From positions 77,096-141,095 of the IMG/VR virus record IMGVR_UViG_3300032070_000613: a stretch of DNA of 64,000 nt. One strand, 5' to 3'. Made by a program: the position numbers and the translations under genes. How positions within the stretch are numbered: position 1 is the first letter of the stretch; each line of letters begins with the position of its first letter. The notes beneath the pieces were generated by a model that had not been told where the DNA came from, searched no databases, and saw nothing but the letters and a program-made list of their open reading frames with translations. Shown here piece by piece: positions 22,970-63,810 of this stretch. Origin of the DNA: a virus.

Positions 22970-23190
22970 AAATGACGTTGTGGGAGTCTAGGGAGCTTAT
23001 TCAATAAAATGAATATGCAGACGTTACAACCAAAGTTCAAGAACGTACCTACGGATGCTTCACTAGTCCGTAGCTCTACAACTCTACCATTAAACAGGAA
23101 CGAAAGCGCCAGTGTGGTAGAGAAAGTACTGAGTTGTAACAATCCCGAAGTGAATCTACGGAAACAGGTATCCGGACTTACAGTCATTGT
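22948..23190 (+). ncRNA. omegaRNA scaffold (copy 1), boundaries approximate
   Basis: Structured ~240 nt region directly upstream of the PLMP codons (CTACGGATGCTTCACTAGTCCGTAG hairpin, TAAACAG...CAGTG, AACAATCCCGAAG), conserved in three copies. Confidence 0.8.
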
Positions 23191-24367
23191 ACCTGTACTC
23201 TCTTTGGAGGGGAGTCCTCTAATGCCGTGCACTCCAGTTAAAGCACGGCACCTTTTAGAAAAAAGGAGAGCCCATGTCGTAAAACTAAATCCTTTTATTA
23301 TTAGATTGAATTTCAAGTGTGAAAGCATAGTTCAGGAAATCAGTTTCGGAATGGATGCCGGATACAAAAATATTGGATATTCAGCGATTACAGATACAAA
23401 AGAAATTTTATCAGGTGAAATAGCTCTGGATAATAAAACTAAAAGCAGAATGAACGAAAGAAAAATGTATAGAAGAAATAGAAGGTATCGTCTGAGGTAT
23501 AGAAAACCAAGATTCGATAATAGGGTAAAACCCGAGGGATGGCTCCCTCCCTCTATAAAGAGAAAATTTGATACCCATATAAATTTCATAAAAGGGCTCA
23601 AAAAAATGTTACCTATCAAAAAGGTCACAGTTGAGATAGGAAATTTTGATATTCAAAAGATAGAGAATCCCGATATCTCTGGAGTCCAGTATCAGCAGGG
23701 TGATTTATACGGGTATTATAATTTGAAACTCTATCTTTTGGAGAGGGAAAAAGGAAAGTGTCAACTCTGCGGGAAAAAATTCACTAAAGAAAATAAACCC
23801 CACATGCACCATATAAAACAAAGGAGTGAGGGTGGTACTAGTAGAGCTGAGGGTATCGCTCTTATACATAAAAGTTGTCATGAAGATTTGCATAAGAAAA
23901 AATTATTTCATAAATTGAAACCAGCTAAAGCTTATAAAGCAGAAACTTTTATGTCTATAGTTGGAGGGATGTTCAAGAAATTTTTAGATTGTGATGTTAC
24001 TTACGGATATGAGACGTGTGCTAAAAGAAAAGAGTTAGGTTTAGAGAAATCTCATGTGAATGATGCCTTTGTTATAGCCGGAGGGACTATTCAAACTAGA
24101 TGCCTACCTAGTATGATAGAGCAAAAGAGAATTAATAACAGGACTCTGCAGACGAATAGAAAAGGTTTTTCTTCTTCTATTAGGAAACAGAGGCATAAAA
24201 TACAAAATAGAGATTTTATTTGGATTAGTGGTAAAAAATATTTGAGTGGAGGCGTGGCTAGTAGAGGGACTCAGGTATATTATTTTGATGGGAGTGAGAA
24301 GAAACTCATCCCTTCTAAAAAGATTGAAAAAATTTATAATACTGATAATTTGATTTGGCTAGATTAA
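23009..24367 (+). CDS. iscB: RNA-guided endonuclease IscB
   Basis: PLMP motif, RuvC-I GMDAG, RRxRR bridge helix (RRNRRYRLRYRKPRFDNR), WLPPS, RuvC-II VEIGNFD, CxxC-HH HNH region, RuvC-III SHVNDA. Confidence 0.93.
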   Translation: MNMQTLQPKFKNVPTDASLVRSSTTLPLNRNESASVVEKVLSCNNPEVNLRKQVSGLTVIVPVLSLEGSPLMPCTPVKARHLLEKRRAHVVKLNPFIIRLNFKCESIVQEISFGMDAGYKNIGYSAITDTKEILSGEIALDNKTKSRMNERKMYRRNRRYRLRYRKPRFDNRVKPEGWLPPSIKRKFDTHINFIKGLKKMLPIKKVTVEIGNFDIQKIENPDISGVQYQQGDLYGYYNLKLYLLEREKGKCQLCGKKFTKENKPHMHHIKQRSEGGTSRAEGIALIHKSCHEDLHKKKLFHKLKPAKAYKAETFMSIVGGMFKKFLDCDVTYGYETCAKRKELGLEKSHVNDAFVIAGGTIQTRCLPSMIEQKRINNRTLQTNRKGFSSSIRKQRHKIQNRDFIWISGKKYLSGGVASRGTQVYYFDGSEKKLIPSKKIEKIYNTDNLIWLD

Positions 24368-48532: not shown

Positions 48533-48750
48533 CGATGTAGGAGTCTAGGGAGCTTATTCAGTAACATGAATATGCAGACGTTACAACCAAAGTTCAAGAA
48601 CGTACCTACGGATGCTTCACTAGTCTGTAGCTCTACAACTCTACCATTAAACAGGAACGAAAGCGCCAGTGTGGTAGAGAAAGTACTGAGTTGTAACAAT
48701 CCCGAAGTGAATCTTCACTGGAAACGGGTATCCGGACTTAAAGTCATTGT
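48504..48750 (+). ncRNA. omegaRNA scaffold (copy 2), boundaries approximate
   Basis: Near-identical to the 22948-23190 scaffold; directly upstream of PLMP. Confidence 0.8.
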
Positions 48751-49927
48751 ACCCGTACTCTCTTTAAAAAGGAGTCCTTTAATGCCTTGCGGTTTGATCA
48801 AAGCTCGTCACTTAATTAAAGGAGGTAAAGCAAAAGTAGTTAAACTGAACCCACTAGTCATTCAGCTTAAATTTGACTGTGAAAACCAGATCCAAGATGT
48901 TTCTTTAGGTATTGATTCAGGCTATAAAACTATTGGATTCTCGGCTGTTTCTGAAATAAGAGAAGTTAGCGCTGGTGAGCTGAATCTAGATAATGGAACA
49001 TCAAAAAAGTTAATAGAAAAGAAAATGTATCGAAGGCATAGAAGAAACAGGCTGAGATACAGAAAACCAAGATTTAATAACAGAAAAAAATCTTCTGGGT
49101 GGCTTCCTCCTTCTATTCAGAGAAAATTTGATACGCACCTCAATCTGATAAAAAAGATAAAAGCTATAGTACCGGTTAAGAAGCTAACCATAGAGATAGG
49201 GGAATTTGATATTCAAAAGATAATGAACCCTGAGATTTCAGGCAAAAAATATCAGCAAGGTAATTTATTTGGGTATAATAATATGAGGTCTTTTTTGATA
49301 GCTCGTGAGAAAGGGAAATGTCAGTTATGTGGAAAAAAGTTCAGTAGAGATGATCCCTCTCATATGCATCATATAAAACCAAGGATTATGGGAGGTACTG
49401 ATAGACCCGATGATTTAGCTTTGGTACATAAAAGCTGTCATGATAAGATTCACAAGGAAAAACTTTTTAACAAACTCAAAAAAGCCAAGGAGTATAAAGC
49501 TGAGACTTTTATGGCTATTGTAGGGGCTAAATTTAAAAAAGTTTTGGATTGTGATATTACATATGGGTATGAGACTAAGACTAAAAGAGATTTATTGGAG
49601 ATAGATAAAAGCCATATCAATGATGCATTTGTAATAGCTGGTGGATCTACGCAGAAAAGATGCAAGCCTTATAAAATAGAACAGAAAAGGATCAACAACC
49701 GGACTCTGCAGACTAATAGGAAAGGTTTTTCAAAATCTATTAGGAAACAGAGGCATAAAATACAAAACAGGGATTTCATTTGGATTGATAGTAAAAAATA
49801 TTTGAGCGGGGGCGTGGCTTGTAGAGGGACTCAGGTATATTATTTTGATGCGAATGAGAAGAGGCTTATATCTTCAAAAAAGATAGAAAAAGTTTATCAT
49901 ACAGGGAGTTTAGTGTGGCTAAATTAA
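48566..49927 (+). CDS. iscB: RNA-guided endonuclease IscB
   Basis: PLMP, LGIDSG, RRHRRNRLRYRKPRFNNR, WLPPS, IEIGEFD, CQLC..HH, SHINDA. Confidence 0.93.
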   Translation: MNMQTLQPKFKNVPTDASLVCSSTTLPLNRNESASVVEKVLSCNNPEVNLHWKRVSGLKVIVPVLSLKRSPLMPCGLIKARHLIKGGKAKVVKLNPLVIQLKFDCENQIQDVSLGIDSGYKTIGFSAVSEIREVSAGELNLDNGTSKKLIEKKMYRRHRRNRLRYRKPRFNNRKKSSGWLPPSIQRKFDTHLNLIKKIKAIVPVKKLTIEIGEFDIQKIMNPEISGKKYQQGNLFGYNNMRSFLIAREKGKCQLCGKKFSRDDPSHMHHIKPRIMGGTDRPDDLALVHKSCHDKIHKEKLFNKLKKAKEYKAETFMAIVGAKFKKVLDCDITYGYETKTKRDLLEIDKSHINDAFVIAGGSTQKRCKPYKIEQKRINNRTLQTNRKGFSKSIRKQRHKIQNRDFIWIDSKKYLSGGVACRGTQVYYFDANEKRLISSKKIEKVYHTGSLVWLN

Positions 49928-58632: not shown

Positions 58633-59580
58633 ATGAAGAAGAGATCTGATTTTAACGATTTAACAGGAAAAGTTTTTGGTGATCTTACTGTAGTATCTTT
58701 GGCGTTCACAAAAAATAGAGTTTCTCACTGGAACTGTTTGTGTAAATGTGGTAGAAATAGGATAGTAAGATCTAGGTATTTAACACAGGGTATTCACACT
58801 TCTTGTGTAGTATGCTCAAAAATTAAAAATGTCGGGCATCACTATGTGGATCTGACTGGGAAACGCTTTCACCGGTTAATAGTTCAGCATATATCCCATT
58901 ATGACTTATTAAAAAGGACATACTATTGGAAATGTCTGTGCGATTGTGGTAAAGAAGTAATTATTATTGGTAATAGTTTAAAAACGAATAGAACAAAGTC
59001 GTGTGGGTGCCTTGTTTCCGAGAAAGCTAAGAATAGACTTTTTACAAATCTTATAGGAAAGCGCTTCGGTAGATTGTTTGTTATTGGTCATGATGGTATG
59101 AAAAAAACTTTTAGATATTGGGAGTGTGTTTGTGATTGTGGAAATAAGACAAAAGTAAAAGCAAGGGATTTAAGGTCAGGGCATACACAGTCTTGTGGGT
59201 GTTTAAGAAAAGAAAGATCTTCAGAAGGCTGTAGAAATAGAAGATTACCGGATAACGAAGCTGGCTTTAATAGGGTATATCGGGAATACCGTAACAAAAA
59301 TGCAGAAAGGCGAGATCTGTCGTTTGAGTTAACAAAAGAACAGTTTAGAGAATTGACTCAAAAGCCCTGTCACTATTGTGGTTTTATGCATTCAAAAAAC
59401 CAGTTAGGTTTTTTATATAATGGTTTAGATAGAGTAGACAATAAAAAAGGTTATACAATAGATAACGTAGTTCCTTGCTGCTTTACCTGTAACATATCAA
59501 AAGCTCGTATGACAGTAGAAGAATTCTTATCTTGGATAGATCGAGTGCACGTGTATCAGAGCCAAAAACAGAACAAATAG
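58633..59580 (+). CDS. HNH (homing-type) endonuclease with three N-terminal Cys-rich repeats
   Basis: Three (D/N)LxGKxFxxL.V...WxCxCxCG...SC repeats; CHYCG...NGLDRVDNKKGYTIDNVVPCCFTCN. Confidence 0.8.
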   Translation: MKKRSDFNDLTGKVFGDLTVVSLAFTKNRVSHWNCLCKCGRNRIVRSRYLTQGIHTSCVVCSKIKNVGHHYVDLTGKRFHRLIVQHISHYDLLKRTYYWKCLCDCGKEVIIIGNSLKTNRTKSCGCLVSEKAKNRLFTNLIGKRFGRLFVIGHDGMKKTFRYWECVCDCGNKTKVKARDLRSGHTQSCGCLRKERSSEGCRNRRLPDNEAGFNRVYREYRNKNAERRDLSFELTKEQFRELTQKPCHYCGFMHSKNQLGFLYNGLDRVDNKKGYTIDNVVPCCFTCNISKARMTVEEFLSWIDRVHVYQSQKQNK

Positions 59581-60261: not shown

Positions 60262-60290
60262 TTGACATTTATTTGAAAATGTCGTATATT
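60262..60290 (+). promoter_or_regulatory. Sigma70-type promoter driving the ncRNA cluster
   Basis: TTGACA-17 nt-TATATT with an A/T-rich upstream element. Confidence 0.8.
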
Positions 60291-60331: not shown

Positions 60332-60593
60332 GTAACCCTACAACGTCACTTAATAAATGACGCTGTGGGAGTCTAGGGAGCTTATTCAGTAAAATGAATA
60401 TGCAGACGTTACAACCAGAGTTCAAGAACGTACCTACGGATGCTTCACTAGTCCGTAGCTCTACAAATCTCTCTTTAAACAGACTGGAAACGGTCAGTGA
60501 GAGAGGTATAGTACTGGGCTGTAACAATCCCGAAGTGAATCTACGGAAACAGGTATCCGGACTTATAGTCACTGTACCTGTATATGAGTCCTT
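60332..60593 (+). ncRNA. Orphan omegaRNA (no IscB ORF)
   Basis: Homologous to the other two scaffolds; homology stops just before the PLMP codons; no right end. Confidence 0.8.
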
Positions 60594-60623: not shown

Positions 60624-60737
60624 GATAGTCTAATCTTTTATCGTAATGTGCCTACATCAGGCACACACCCCATGAGCCTTAGTTTAAAGCCGGGTTCATG
60701 GGGGTGTGCCGCACCTTAAAGCACACACAACTCGGAT
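60624..60737 (+). ncRNA. Y-RNA-like unit 1 (box A 60633-60657, long hairpin 60660-60710, box B 60719-60737)
   Basis: Shared box A/box B scaffold; ~19 bp GC-rich hairpin cargo. Confidence 0.6.
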
Positions 60738-60767
60738 AAAGTCATCATCCGTAAAAACGGATGATCC

Positions 60768-60902
60768 ACATCCTTTACCGCAAGGGCTTACATGATCTCA
60801 TAAATCATCGCCGGGCCTTAGAGCCCGGCACCCAGAGAGGCGACCGCCCTCAGTGGCGGAAACGTGCTCTGGAAAGCACTCGCAACTTGGATGTAGATTA
60901 TC
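60768..60902 (+). ncRNA. Y-RNA-like unit 2 (CAU anticodon arm plus GC-rich hairpins)
   Basis: Box A 60770-60793, box B 60874-60892; ATGAT-CTCATAA-ATCAT arm. Confidence 0.65.
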
Positions 60903-60941
60903 TTTTCGAATATGTCGTTCTTTGATAATATGAATAGAAGT

Positions 60942-61079
60942 TAAAAATTTTCATCCTTTATCGTATGGGCTTACATGGATAATGTTTTTATCTCATAAAT
61001 AAAAGCTAGATCGTTCAAACCGATCAAATCCCGTAAGGGATGGTTACTCAAGCACTTACAACTCGGATGAAAATTTTTA
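60942..61079 (+). ncRNA. Y-RNA-like unit 3 (CAU anticodon arm, T-arm, GNRA hairpin)
   Basis: Perfect 15 bp closing stem; box A 60953-60976, box B 61050-61068. Confidence 0.7.
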
Positions 61080-61084
61080 TATAG

Positions 61085-61252
61085 GTCGCTCTTTGATAGA
61101 GCGTGGATTGAAACAAGTCCAGCAAAGCGAACCAAAAACTGCAGCCGAGACTCGCGCATGTTCTTTTTGTCACTCTTTTAGAGAGCGTGGATTGAAACAA
61201 ATCAAGAAGAAAGCACCAAAAGTTGCATCTGAGATTTGCACACGTTTTTTAA
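61085..61252 (+). CRISPR. Two type I-C-like repeats (61085-61114, 61169-61198), each followed by a related ~54 nt sequence; no cas genes in window
   Basis: GTCGCTCTTTGATAGAGCGTGGATTGAAAC and GTCACTCTTTTAGAGAGCGTGGATTGAAAC; internal hairpin and GGATTGAAAC end typical of I-C repeats. Confidence 0.7.
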
Positions 61253-61257
61253 ATCGA

Positions 61258-61411
61258 AATTAAAAATGTATCTTTTACAGTGTGAACTTACATTTAGTCT
61301 TGGTTCGACTCCAAGTTAGCCCACGAAAGTAGGCTAGTAGTTCAACGGTAGAACAGTTGCCTATTAAGCAATCAAAAAAATAGTACGCACGACTCAGATA
61401 CATTTTTAATT
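61258..61411 (+). ncRNA. YrlA-like Y RNA unit 4 with circularly permuted tRNA domain
   Basis: Perfect 16 bp closing stem; T arm, GAAA-capped acceptor, D arm and anticodon arm in permuted order; near a Ro60-like gene. Confidence 0.8.
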
Positions 61412-61414
61412 CAT

Positions 61415-61450
61415 AAGCCGAGGAAGTTTAGCAGCTCTCTCGGCTTTTTT
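61415..61450 (+). terminator. Intrinsic terminator of the ncRNA cluster
   Basis: AAGCCGAG...CTCGGCTT stem plus T-tract. Confidence 0.7.
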
Positions 61451-61904: not shown

Positions 61905-62162
61905 ATGGCAGGCGTACATGTAGTTTATAACGGTCGTAACGAGGACATCGCATTCGAGCAGCTCTTCACGCCCGAGCGCCGTGCCGGAGTTGGCATCGCG
62001 GATGGGATTGTACTCTCGTCCTCAAACGTGACTGAGGACCAGGTGAAACGCGCCTTGTCTCAGTATTATGATGTCGGTGTGGGAGAATTTGACGATCATT
62101 TCGTCGAACTCAACCCAAACGGTAACGTGACCGTCCGTCCGAATACTCCTTTCGGTGGGTAA
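61905..62162 (+). CDS. Small putative ubiquitin-like (beta-grasp) protein ending in Gly-Gly
   Basis: Strong AGGAGG RBS; 85 aa; beta-beta-alpha-beta-beta-like pattern; C-terminus RPNTPFGG. Confidence 0.55.
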   Translation: MAGVHVVYNGRNEDIAFEQLFTPERRAGVGIADGIVLSSSNVTEDQVKRALSQYYDVGVGEFDDHFVELNPNGNVTVRPNTPFGG

Positions 62163-62223: not shown

Positions 62224-63810
62224 ATGGCTACCGCTACTCAGAAAAATACAGCCGCTCCGGAAAAAGAAGAAGACCTGCGGGTAAAAATCCTCAACACCTT
62301 CATGACGTGTGACCACCGAAATACCGAAATGTCAATGAAAGTGCACCAAGAGGTCCAGACGAAGGATCCCCTGTTCTATGCGCACCTCGCATGCTGGTAC
62401 CGTAAGAACGGCGAACTCCGAGATGTCAATGAGGTATTCTCGGCGCTGCTCAGTGTGGATCCATATCTCCCTAACCGTGAGGTAGGCCTGGCGCTTTTCC
62501 GGGAGCAGGCCCCATTCATGAAACGGCGCATCCTGGGTTTCATTAAGGGCAAGAAAGTCAAAGTCCGTGAGAAGACTGGTAAAAAAATCAAAATCGGTAA
62601 GAAGACCGTGGATGAAGTCAAAATCACCGAGAAAAAGGTAGGTCTCGATAAATCCCTGCCGACTGCGTTCAAGACGGAGGTCACGCGATATCTACGCTGG
62701 CTGGAGTCCAATACGGAGAAGTTTGATACGGTCGCTATCCGTAATGCTAAAGATCTAAAGGCACTCTATGCCTCTAACGGTCTGCAGATCAAACCATCGC
62801 CGCGGGCGCAGGCTATCCTATTCGATAAGGAGTATCCGAAAGATAGTAAGCTGAATATTTTCGAGAAAATCAGCACAGCAAAAACTCCCGAAGAAGCTGC
62901 GAAGCTCATTGTGGAGAACAAAGTCCCGTATACCGTCGCTGTGGGTTTGGTGGAAAAAATCACTCCATCTATCCTGGTGGCGCTCATCGATGCTATGAGT
63001 CCTCAGGAGTTGATCAACAATGTCGCCTCTCTGGAAGAAAAGGGAGCGATGGACAATCCGGACGTCAAAAAGCTGATCCAGGCTAAACTGGGGAAAGCTG
63101 AGAAATCCAAAACAGTCGCCACTTTGAAATCCAAAACAGCGAAAGCTACTGGTCGTATCAAGGATGAAGAAGTCCTCAAGCAGCTTGATAAGGTAGCTGA
63201 TGAGCAGGTCAAAAAGAGTGGTACTATTAAAGTCCCTACTGCGATCTTTATTGATCAGTCTGGTTCTATGGATAAAGCGATCGATGTAGGTAAGCGGTGT
63301 GCGGCGCTGGTGTCTGGTGTCACTACCGCCGATCTACATGTAGTTTGTTTTAATACGGCGGCTACCCCGATCACGTCTACGGAGAAGACTCTGACTGGTT
63401 GGGAGAGGGCGTTTGCGCCTATTCATGCCAATGGGGGTACGTCTATTGGGTGTGCCCTGGATTATCTGATGCGGCGTGGGCATGCGGTGGAGCAGCTCGT
63501 GGTTATTACGGATGAGCTAGAGAATAGCGCTCCGTTTTTCACAGATGTTTTTGCTAAGTATAAGGAGCAGGCCAAAGCCACTCCGCACGTTGTGATCATC
63601 AATGTCAGTGCGACGGCGCATAGCTATAGTGATCAGATTCTTCATGAGAGTTTGGATAAAGCGAAGATTACATATGATGTATATAAGCCCGCGAATTCAG
63701 ATTATTACGGGCTGCCGGGTTTAGTGACGTTACTATCTCGTAAGTCCAAACTGGATCTTGTGTATGAAATTCTGGATACGCCTTTGCTGGTCCGGAGGGA
63801 TTTTCGATAG
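62224..63810 (+). CDS. Ro60/TROVE-like RNA-binding protein with C-terminal vWA (MIDAS) domain
   Basis: N-terminal DPLFYAHLACWYRKNGELRD (TROVE-like), helical basic middle, IDQSGSM / GGTSIG / VITDELEN MIDAS motifs; GGAGG RBS. Confidence 0.75.
   Translation: MATATQKNTAAPEKEEDLRVKILNTFMTCDHRNTEMSMKVHQEVQTKDPLFYAHLACWYRKNGELRDVNEVFSALLSVDPYLPNREVGLALFREQAPFMKRRILGFIKGKKVKVREKTGKKIKIGKKTVDEVKITEKKVGLDKSLPTAFKTEVTRYLRWLESNTEKFDTVAIRNAKDLKALYASNGLQIKPSPRAQAILFDKEYPKDSKLNIFEKISTAKTPEEAAKLIVENKVPYTVAVGLVEKITPSILVALIDAMSPQELINNVASLEEKGAMDNPDVKKLIQAKLGKAEKSKTVATLKSKTAKATGRIKDEEVLKQLDKVADEQVKKSGTIKVPTAIFIDQSGSMDKAIDVGKRCAALVSGVTTADLHVVCFNTAATPITSTEKTLTGWERAFAPIHANGGTSIGCALDYLMRRGHAVEQLVVITDELENSAPFFTDVFAKYKEQAKATPHVVIINVSATAHSYSDQILHESLDKAKITYDVYKPANSDYYGLPGLVTLLSRKSKLDLVYEILDTPLLVRRDFR

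What the first reader, a model, noticed from the sequence alone, without database searches (positions are those of the whole stretch)
60792..61041. CAU anticodon arms and a T-arm displayed as cargo: possible decoys for anticodon nucleases
Seen: the loop CTCATAA caps two different stems: ATGAT/ATCAT (60792-60808, 5 bp plus 7 nt) and GTTTTTAT/ATAAAAGC (60984-61006). Unit 3 continues with GATCG-TTCAAAC-CGATC (61009-61025, T-arm consensus) and ATCCC-GTAA-GGGAT. Established: CUCAUAA is the anticodon loop of bacterial tRNA-fMet/Met/Ile2, and enteric VapC toxins and other defence nucleases cut tRNA anticodon loops. Inference: loop conservation on unrelated stems implies selection for tRNA-Met mimicry, for example titrating a host anticodon nuclease, MetRS or TilS.
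Basis: partly seen in the sequence, partly recalled or inferred. Interest (0 to 1): 0.8.

Follow-up and report, generated by a model that had tools for sequence, protein, structure and literature searches.

The report
Phage tRNA-mimic cargo on Ro60 handles
These hairpins are tRNA parts carried on a shared RNA "handle" beside a phage Ro60-like protein gene; across related phages the anticodon changes freely, so they look like a swappable set of tRNA look-alikes rather than decoys made for methionine tRNA.

Summary
The hairpins are real and not chance (0/20,000 shuffles). They are cargo in units 2 and 3 of a four-unit RNA array upstream of a Gly-Gly-ending ORF and a protein that folds like Ro60. 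All units share a covarying two-helix handle (474 units, 132 loci). Unit 3 is more than an arm plus T-arm: it is an eroded whole tRNA(CAU), circularly permuted with the handle in the D-loop, its acceptor sealed by GUAA and no CCA. Homologues keep the arms by compensatory changes. Unit 2 carries a bare anticodon-like hairpin.

CAU specificity is weak. 110 loops from 49 arrays use 36 anticodons (CAU 7). Unit 3's nearest relatives read AAU, though CAU is the commonest loop in its class (4/11). A sister phage with 98% identical Ro60 has no CAU in its array, and one sediment population holds both unit-2 alleles. The two stems are also related, sharing 11 identical bases. The loop frame (U33, R37, A38) is conserved while the triplet varies.

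Best reading: non-decoding tRNA-shaped bait or tether modules of an undescribed Ro60/Y-RNA-type particle; binding and protection are untested. This scan has found the family before in many other genomes.

The parts
60262..60290 (+). Sigma70-like promoter (11/12) heading the RNA operon
   Evidence: similar promoters at the head of homologous arrays
60629..60746 (+). Unit 1: handle plus one long hairpin cargo
60763..60899 (+). Unit 2 (class D): handle (60763-60793 / 60874-60899) enclosing three hairpins
60792..60808 (+). Unit 2 hairpin 1: bare anticodon-like arm, loop CTCATAA 60797-60803; hypervariable in homologues, polymorphic in run X2
60810..60871 (+). Unit 2 hairpins 2 (60810-60829) and 3 (60833-60871, internal loop); conserved class-D modules, hairpin 3 absent from the alternative allele
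60942..61079 (+). Unit 3 (class C): handle (60942-60976 / 61050-61079) grafted into the D-loop of a circularly permuted tRNA(CAU)
60977..60986 (+). Unit 3: D-loop G18G19 (60977-60978) and eroded 3' D-stem strand
   Evidence: alignment to L088, L191, L046
60987..61003 (+). Unit 3 anticodon arm, loop 60992-60998, anticodon CAU; can extend to 8 bp (60984-61006)
61009..61025 (+). Unit 3 T-arm (T54-U55-C56, A58 kept)
61026..61049 (+). Unit 3 truncated acceptor stem (5 of 7 pairs) sealed by a GTAA tetraloop, no CCA, followed by the eroded 5' D-stem strand
61085..61252 (+). Two type I-C-like CRISPR repeats (61085-61114, 61169-61198); the first is followed by sequence matching the 3' half of a class-A handle unit
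   Evidence: read by eye, not modelled
61258..61411 (+). Unit 4 (class B): handle plus tRNA permuted at the variable loop (T, closed acceptor, D, anticodon arm CTATTAA); YrlA-like
   Evidence: (YrlA 26 bits, below gathering 69)
61415..61450 (+). Terminator-like hairpin plus T run ending the array
   Evidence: seen in sequence and in homologues; not listed by the scan
61905..62162 (+). 85-aa protein ending in Gly-Gly, candidate ubiquitin-like protein, syntenic in the close relatives
   Evidence: fold not tested
62224..63810 (+). 528-aa Ro60-like protein (helical ring plus vWA domain with DxSxS motif)

Best explanation
The array is transcribed as a series of Y-RNA-like units, each a conserved handle plus an exchangeable cargo. 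The handle is inferred to dock on the adjacent Ro60-like ring. The cargo displays tRNA surfaces that cannot decode or be charged as transcribed: in unit 3 an eroded tRNA(CAU) opened in the D-loop with a sealed acceptor, in unit 2 a bare anticodon-like hairpin. The cargo acts as bait or tether for host proteins that read tRNA shape (anticodon nucleases, modification enzymes, synthetases, RNases) and holds them on the ring, perhaps near the Ubl/JAB/E1 proteins encoded in related loci. The loop frame is selected; the triplet is one entry of a changing repertoire, swapped between handles by recombination. CAU in unit 3 is inherited from, or reverted to, a Met/Ile2-type ancestor of class C; CAU in unit 2 is a recent allele, possibly copied from unit 3. 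SHOWN: handle structure and covariation, permuted-tRNA anatomy, Ro60 fold, linkage, anticodon diversity, allele polymorphism. INFERRED: expression, Ro60 binding, bait function, recombination mechanism, link to Ubl chemistry.
For: Ro60/Rsr structures are the top fold hits (E 1e-11 to 1e-9, TM about 0.6). Handle units recur in 132 loci, 474 distinct units; they were sought in loci fetched by the Ro60-like gene, so linkage was not tested against loci without it. Handle helices pair in one register with mutual information up to 0.85, and slid registers collapse. Class C: anticodon stem 5/5, T stem 5/5, acceptor 5/7 pairs with two-sided changes, 0/500 shuffles. De-permuted class C cargos are called tRNA by ARAGORN in 13/15 cases against 2/15 in native order, at a relaxed threshold. 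In classes A-C (93 loops) U33 75, R37 91, A38 87 are kept, while 36 anticodons occur over all 110 loops and 33 of the 93 have A34; by general knowledge A34 is very rare in bacterial decoding tRNAs. Two unit-2 alleles coexist in run X2 at depths 16.7 and 22.5 and both lead into the same unit 3. Cyanobacterial units carry a 23S rRNA-like piece as cargo (19 units; best match in all 5426 E. coli genomes is 23S rRNA, though only 26-27 nt at E 2-5). JAB and ThiF genes follow the Ro60-like gene in L007 and L191.
Against: No binding or protection data. The handle lacks the GNCGAAN0-1G motif of known bacterial Y RNAs (5/474). Free variation of the triplet is also expected if it is simply neutral. Unit 3's D-stem is eroded (2 of 4 pairs in the homologous register) and its de-permuted form scores below ARAGORN's default threshold. 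In class D only 8/17 seven-base loops keep U33. Loop classes were partly curated by hand, and related phages are not independent samples.
Confidence: 0.55

Rival explanations
1. Structural gate or tether with a neutral triplet: the cargo only supplies a stable tRNA-like fold that gates the Ro60 ring or tethers a general nuclease such as PNPase, as in RYPER. The anticodon drifts because nothing reads it, and the two CAU loops reflect ancestry plus one copying event.
For: 36 anticodons, many with A34; within-array sharing of anticodons is not above chance (5 vs 3.7, p 0.31). Class D loops decay to 5-6 nt. Phage phiLo Ro60 and its Yrls bind host PNPase (PMC12135203).
Against: U33, R37 and A38 and the 7-nt length are kept in classes A-C, more than a plain hairpin needs. 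54/110 anticodons end in U36 (counted). Whole cargos are swapped within one population.
Confidence: 0.22
2. One reading: units 2 and 3 are dedicated CAU decoys that titrate a Met/Ile2-specific anticodon nuclease, MetRS or TilS.
For: CAU is the commonest class C loop (4/11, against 1/82 in classes A and B) and sits on different stems. L193 also has two CAU units, one of them in the unit-2 position. Both class-D CAU cases fall in arrays with a second CAU unit (2 of about 27 arrays, 4 of which have another CAU; p about 0.02 by hand, not phylogeny-corrected).
Against: Nearest class C relatives read AAU. The sister L011 has no CAU in its array. A non-CAU allele is at least as abundant in run X2. 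The stems lack the initiator 3 G-C signature, and unit 3 has no intact acceptor end. The shared 11-mer allows a single copying event.
Confidence: 0.14
3. Unit 3 is a permuted pre-tRNA: the handle is excised, the D-loop ligated and the acceptor opened, giving a working tRNA-Met/Ile2, as in red algae and Thermofilum.
For: Several class C homologues have 7-bp acceptors followed by an internal NCCA (L046, L035, L007). M. smegmatis YrlA is cut by RNase P and gets CCA (PMC4201824).
Against: Window unit 3 has only 5 acceptor pairs, no CCA and an eroded D-stem. Many family loops are A34 or non-canonical. No bacterial splicing endonuclease is reported (10.1101/312249).
Confidence: 0.07
4. Chance hairpins in AT-rich intergenic DNA.
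For: About 0.28 anticodon-type hairpins per kb occur anywhere in this genome.
Against: 0/20,000 shuffles; covariation in homologues.
Confidence: 0.01

Closest known systems
YrlA Y RNAs with Ro60/Rsr (Rfam RF02553; PMC4201824; structure 10.1101/312249)
   Same: Encoded within 4 kb of a Ro60-fold gene on the same strand; a terminal stem plus a circularly permuted tRNA-like domain with a closed acceptor; present in phages.
   Different: The handle has no GNCGAAN0-1G motif. YrlA lacks the anticodon loop, whereas these units keep it. At least three tRNA layouts occur (unpermuted, opened at the variable loop, opened at the D-loop) plus non-tRNA cargo, in arrays of up to 11 units. Best Rfam score is 26 bits against a gathering score of 69.
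Thermus phage phiLo Ro60 with Yrl1/Yrl2 (PMC12135203; PDB 9KOP, 9L5Y)
   Same: Phage Ro60 with several RNAs directly upstream; fold hit E 5e-11, weak profile hit E 0.023.
   Different: Yrl1/2 use a CGAA motif, and no anticodon arm is mentioned; 15% protein identity.
Permuted tRNA genes of Cyanidioschyzon and Thermofilum (as cited in 10.1101/312249)
   Same: 3' half before 5' half, acceptor initially closed by a loop.
   Different: Those mature into working tRNAs by splicing endonuclease; here the ends form a long conserved handle and unit 3 is eroded.
Phage tRNAs that evade anticodon nucleases (PMC10264068; PARIS, PMC10802454)
   Same: Phage RNAs with altered anticodon loops in a conflict with tRNA-cutting defences.
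   Different: Those are working, cleavage-resistant replacement tRNAs; these cannot decode as transcribed and would act as bait.
Dictyostelid Class I RNAs (PMC7919456)
   Same: A terminal stem, a conserved single-stranded motif next to its 5' strand, and a variable interior.
   Different: Eukaryotic, 42-65 nt, bound by an RRM protein; no Rfam hit here. A resemblance raised by an earlier scan note, not tested by model.

Membership tests
Bacterial Y RNA (YrlA/YrlB) | Within 4 kb of a Ro60 orthologue, same strand | tested here: met
   array ends 0.8 kb upstream of 62224; fold hits
Bacterial Y RNA (YrlA/YrlB) | GNCGAAN0-1G motif in the 5' strand | tested here: not met
   5 of 474 units; handle consensus shows no such motif
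Bacterial Y RNA (YrlA/YrlB) | Score above the RF02553 gathering threshold | tested here: not met
   26.3 bits for unit 4, nothing for units 2 and 3; none in 13 homologous loci
Bacterial Y RNA (YrlA/YrlB) | tRNA-like domain with D/T elbow and closed acceptor | tested here: met
   unit 4 fully, unit 3 in eroded form; not unit 2
Bacterial Y RNA (YrlA/YrlB) | Bound by Ro60 | not testable with these tools
   needs EMSA or immunoprecipitation
Ro60/Rsr (TROVE) | Helical ring plus vWA domain with MIDAS | tested here: met
   model pLDDT 80.7; top Foldseek hits are all Ro60/Rsr; D344-x-S346-x-S348 invariant. Pfam TROVE not hit, vWA_Ro60 below cut-off
Functional tRNA gene | Colinear cloverleaf with 7-bp acceptor and free 3' end | tested here: not met
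   ARAGORN finds 0 genes in the window and contig; acceptor 5/7 pairs, sealed, no CCA
Initiator tRNA mimic (enteric VapC target) | Three consecutive G-C pairs in the anticodon stem | tested here: not met
   unit 2 has one G-C, unit 3 none in the five inner pairs; feature per PMC3017606
CAU-specific decoy | CAU loop conserved in orthologous units | tested here: inconclusive
   class C 4/11, class D 2/17 of 7-nt loops; nearest relatives differ
CAU-specific decoy | Binds or protects against a tRNA-targeting enzyme | not testable with these tools
   needs cleavage or protection assays
Processed permuted pre-tRNA | Circular intermediate and mature charged tRNA | not testable with these tools
   no RNA reads available for this stretch

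The most novel reading that the evidence does not exclude
The array is a reprogrammable bait library: handle-flanked cassettes mimicking tRNA anticodon arms (and, in cyanobacteria, a 23S rRNA helix) are swapped within phage populations to match whichever tRNA-cutting defence the host carries. The Ro60-like ring holds the captured enzyme and acts as an RNA-guided substrate adaptor for the linked Ubl/E1/JAB proteins. The doubled CAU here would mark a host with a Met/Ile2-directed nuclease.
Probability: 0.1. Interest if true: 0.9.

Novelty: new variant of a known kind. Interest (0 to 1): 0.5.

Why it matters
What the tRNA-like domain of bacterial Y RNAs is for has been open since 2014. This family keeps the anticodon loop that YrlA lacks and offers natural variants on one handle: CAU versus AAU in unit 3, and CAU versus a non-canonical loop in unit 2 within one population. 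These are ready-made controls for asking whether Y-RNA cargo is read as a specific tRNA, as a generic tRNA shape, or not at all. If it is bait, it would be an RNA-based counter-defence against tRNA-cutting immunity, distinct from resistant phage tRNAs and RNA ligases.

Tried and rejected
ARAGORN at default found nothing in window or contig; at 70% threshold it gave 395 noise calls. Rfam gave no family for units 2 and 3 and no LSU hit for the 23S-like cargo. A single-protein viral scan found nothing; the alignment scan worked. A DNA pattern for class C in viral contigs returned mostly ordinary initiator tRNAs and one true class C unit, L213. MAFFT misaligned the outer handle helix (58% paired), so the handle was retested in fixed register. 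The first tree run timed out; FastTree was used instead, with weak support at several nodes near the window. Within-array anticodon sharing is not significant overall. No RNA holder listed. The Atlas search for the 85-aa protein gave only unnamed clusters. A ribozyme reading (twister, pistol, hammerhead) was considered by eye and dropped: no catalytic consensus, no Rfam hit. The paper on VapC stem requirements and two Y-RNA reviews were not held. The Bub paper mentions no Ro60 or vWA. Ten literature searches found no description of this RNA family; the library lacks most subscription journals.

Full report
Observation. Only these two of 33 CTCATAA heptamers in the contig cap a stem of 4 bp or more, and no shuffle in 20,000 gave two. 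Independent sediment runs carry the same letters. The stems are less unrelated than claimed: 11 bases are identical and three of five inner pairs are shared, so one copying event could explain the repeat.

Setting. The window is the end of a 141-kb contig with phage-type ligase, helicases and polymerase; its Ro60-like protein has relatives on IMG/VR contigs of 130-470 kb. A strong promoter at 60262-60290 precedes an orphan HEARO RNA, four structured units, a terminator-like hairpin, a 124-aa ORF, an 85-aa ORF ending in Gly-Gly and a 528-aa protein. That protein's model matches Deinococcus, human, Xenopus and phage phiLo Ro60 best. The five closest homologues fetched by protein id all have a 0.9-1.3 kb non-coding array upstream. 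JAB and ThiF genes follow in L007 and L191; the window's contig ends before this could be checked, but the sister L011 has a JAB-like ORF there (by motif).

The handle. All units share a two-helix stem with an internal loop (5' YYWAC against 3' RACUY), an almost invariant GC/GC pair of pairs and a following single-stranded UACA. Profile scans found 474 distinct units in 132 loci, including cyanobacterial, planctomycete and Chloroflexi chromosomes. In 184 phage-clade units the helices pair in one register with mutual information up to 0.85; the internal loop does not pair, and slid registers fail. The GNCGAAN0-1G motif of known Y RNAs (PMC4201824) is absent, so these work like Y RNAs by position and architecture but are not YrlA members.

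Unit 3. Better-preserved homologues (L088, L191, L046, L058) show what it is. After the handle come the D-loop GG and the 3' D-strand, then anticodon arm, variable loop, T-arm, an acceptor closed by a loop, and finally the 5' D-strand. It is a tRNA opened in the D-loop with the handle inserted there. On 14 sequences the anticodon and T stems vary on both sides at 5/5 pairs and the acceptor at 5/7. Rearranged into normal order, 13 of 15 are called tRNA by ARAGORN against 2 of 15 as written (relaxed threshold, ACCA added, so this is a generous test). The window's copy is called Met(CAU) but below the default score: its acceptor has five pairs, is sealed by a GNRA loop and has no CCA, and its D-stem has two of four homologous pairs. 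It cannot be charged as transcribed. Unlike YrlA, which lacks the anticodon loop (10.1101/312249), it keeps one.

Unit 2. This class has a first hairpin, a GC-rich second hairpin and an internal-loop third hairpin. The first loop is hypervariable: canonical anticodon loops in some (CTCATAA in L193, CTCGTAA, CTGCAAA, CTGTAAA), 5-6-nt loops in most close relatives. L011, with a 98% identical Ro60-like protein, has a GTGGA loop, no third hairpin and no unit 3. Run X2 holds both unit-2 alleles, at depths 16.7 and 22.5, each leading into an identical unit 3 at depth 35.8. Cargo is thus polymorphic within one population; exchange by recombination in the handles is inferred.

Is CAU special? In 49 non-redundant arrays, 110 seven-base loops use 36 anticodons: AUU 13, CAU 7, AAU 7. 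In classes A-C the frame is kept (U33 75/93, R37 91/93, A38 87/93) while a third have A34, which by general knowledge decoding bacterial tRNAs almost never have. CAU is enriched in class C (4/11 against 1/82 in A and B), but these are relatives. On the Ro60 tree the window sits between L007 and L005, both AAU, while CAU appears in L088/L191 and L046; CAU is either ancestral and lost twice or regained once. L193 also doubles CAU, a small hint of coupling, but sharing within arrays is not above chance overall (p 0.31). Neither stem has the three G-C pairs of initiator tRNA (PMC3017606), so tRNA-fMet, the enteric VapC target (PMC10264068), is a poor match; elongator Met or Ile2 fits better.

Mechanism. 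Most likely (0.55) the units are non-decoding tRNA look-alikes docked on the Ro60-like ring, presenting anticodon and elbow surfaces as bait or tether for host tRNA-reading proteins, with a changing repertoire. The 23S rRNA-like cargo of cyanobacterial units fits a theme of mimicking the translation machinery. A neutral triplet on a structural gate (0.22), a dedicated CAU decoy (0.14), a processed pre-tRNA (0.07) and chance (0.01) are the rivals. Expression, binding and protection are all untested.

Novelty. I found no paper on this handle family in ten searches. It is a new variant of the Ro60/Y-RNA kind. This scan has noted the family in many other genomes, including D-loop-opened tRNAs and bare anticodon arms; those notes are unchecked and are not counted as support. 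What this finding adds is the count of anticodon diversity, the AAU/CAU pair of orthologues and the population polymorphism, which together weaken the CAU-decoy claim and supply controls for testing it. Interest 0.5.

Noticed in passing
window 61085-61252; L011 340-730; L043 4420-4599: Type I-C-like CRISPR repeats are followed by what look like 3' halves of handle units; the first window 'spacer' matches the T-arm end, acceptor and 3' handle strand of class A units. Repeats seem to have replaced the 5' halves, giving repeat/Y-RNA chimeras.
   Followed up: partly
L129 3163-3346, L134 3567-3762 and 17 other cyanobacterial units: Handle units whose cargo starts with a 23S rRNA-like piece (helix 69-70 region by memory) and ends with what looks like its upstream strand, i.e. 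a permuted rRNA mimic. Best E. coli match is 23S rRNA in all genomes, but short and weak.
   Followed up: partly
window 60359-60544: Orphan HEARO/omega RNA (90 bits) without a complete IscB, at the head of the operon; absent from sister L011. Two full IscB-like ORFs with the same N-terminus lie at 23009-24367 and 48566-49927.
   Followed up: no
L005, L009, L010 linkers; 5' handle strands of L021, L029, L041, L091: Linkers TTCTTTGAAA and handle strands TGCTCTTTAACA resemble rrn boxA antitermination sites (from memory).
   Followed up: no
window 61357-61371 versus L011 833-847: Unit 4 is otherwise identical in the sister phage but differs at one anticodon base (AUU versus AUC).
   Followed up: yes
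family-wide: 54 of 110 anticodons end in U36, mostly followed by AA, the t6A37 signal; may mark what reads these loops or reflect AT bias.
   Followed up: partly
L112-L190: A further layout in cellular loci: opened between D-arm and anticodon stem (anticodon arm, T, closed acceptor, D), about 40-90 units by rough classification.
   Followed up: no
L009 11328-12989, L005 from 12746; L192 17381-18793: Ser/Thr kinase genes and a PARP gene lie downstream of the Ro60-like gene in some relatives.
   Followed up: no
window 58633-59580: 315-aa cysteine-rich repeat protein, HNH-homing-endonuclease-like by eye; a truncated copy sits just before the array in L009.
   Followed up: no
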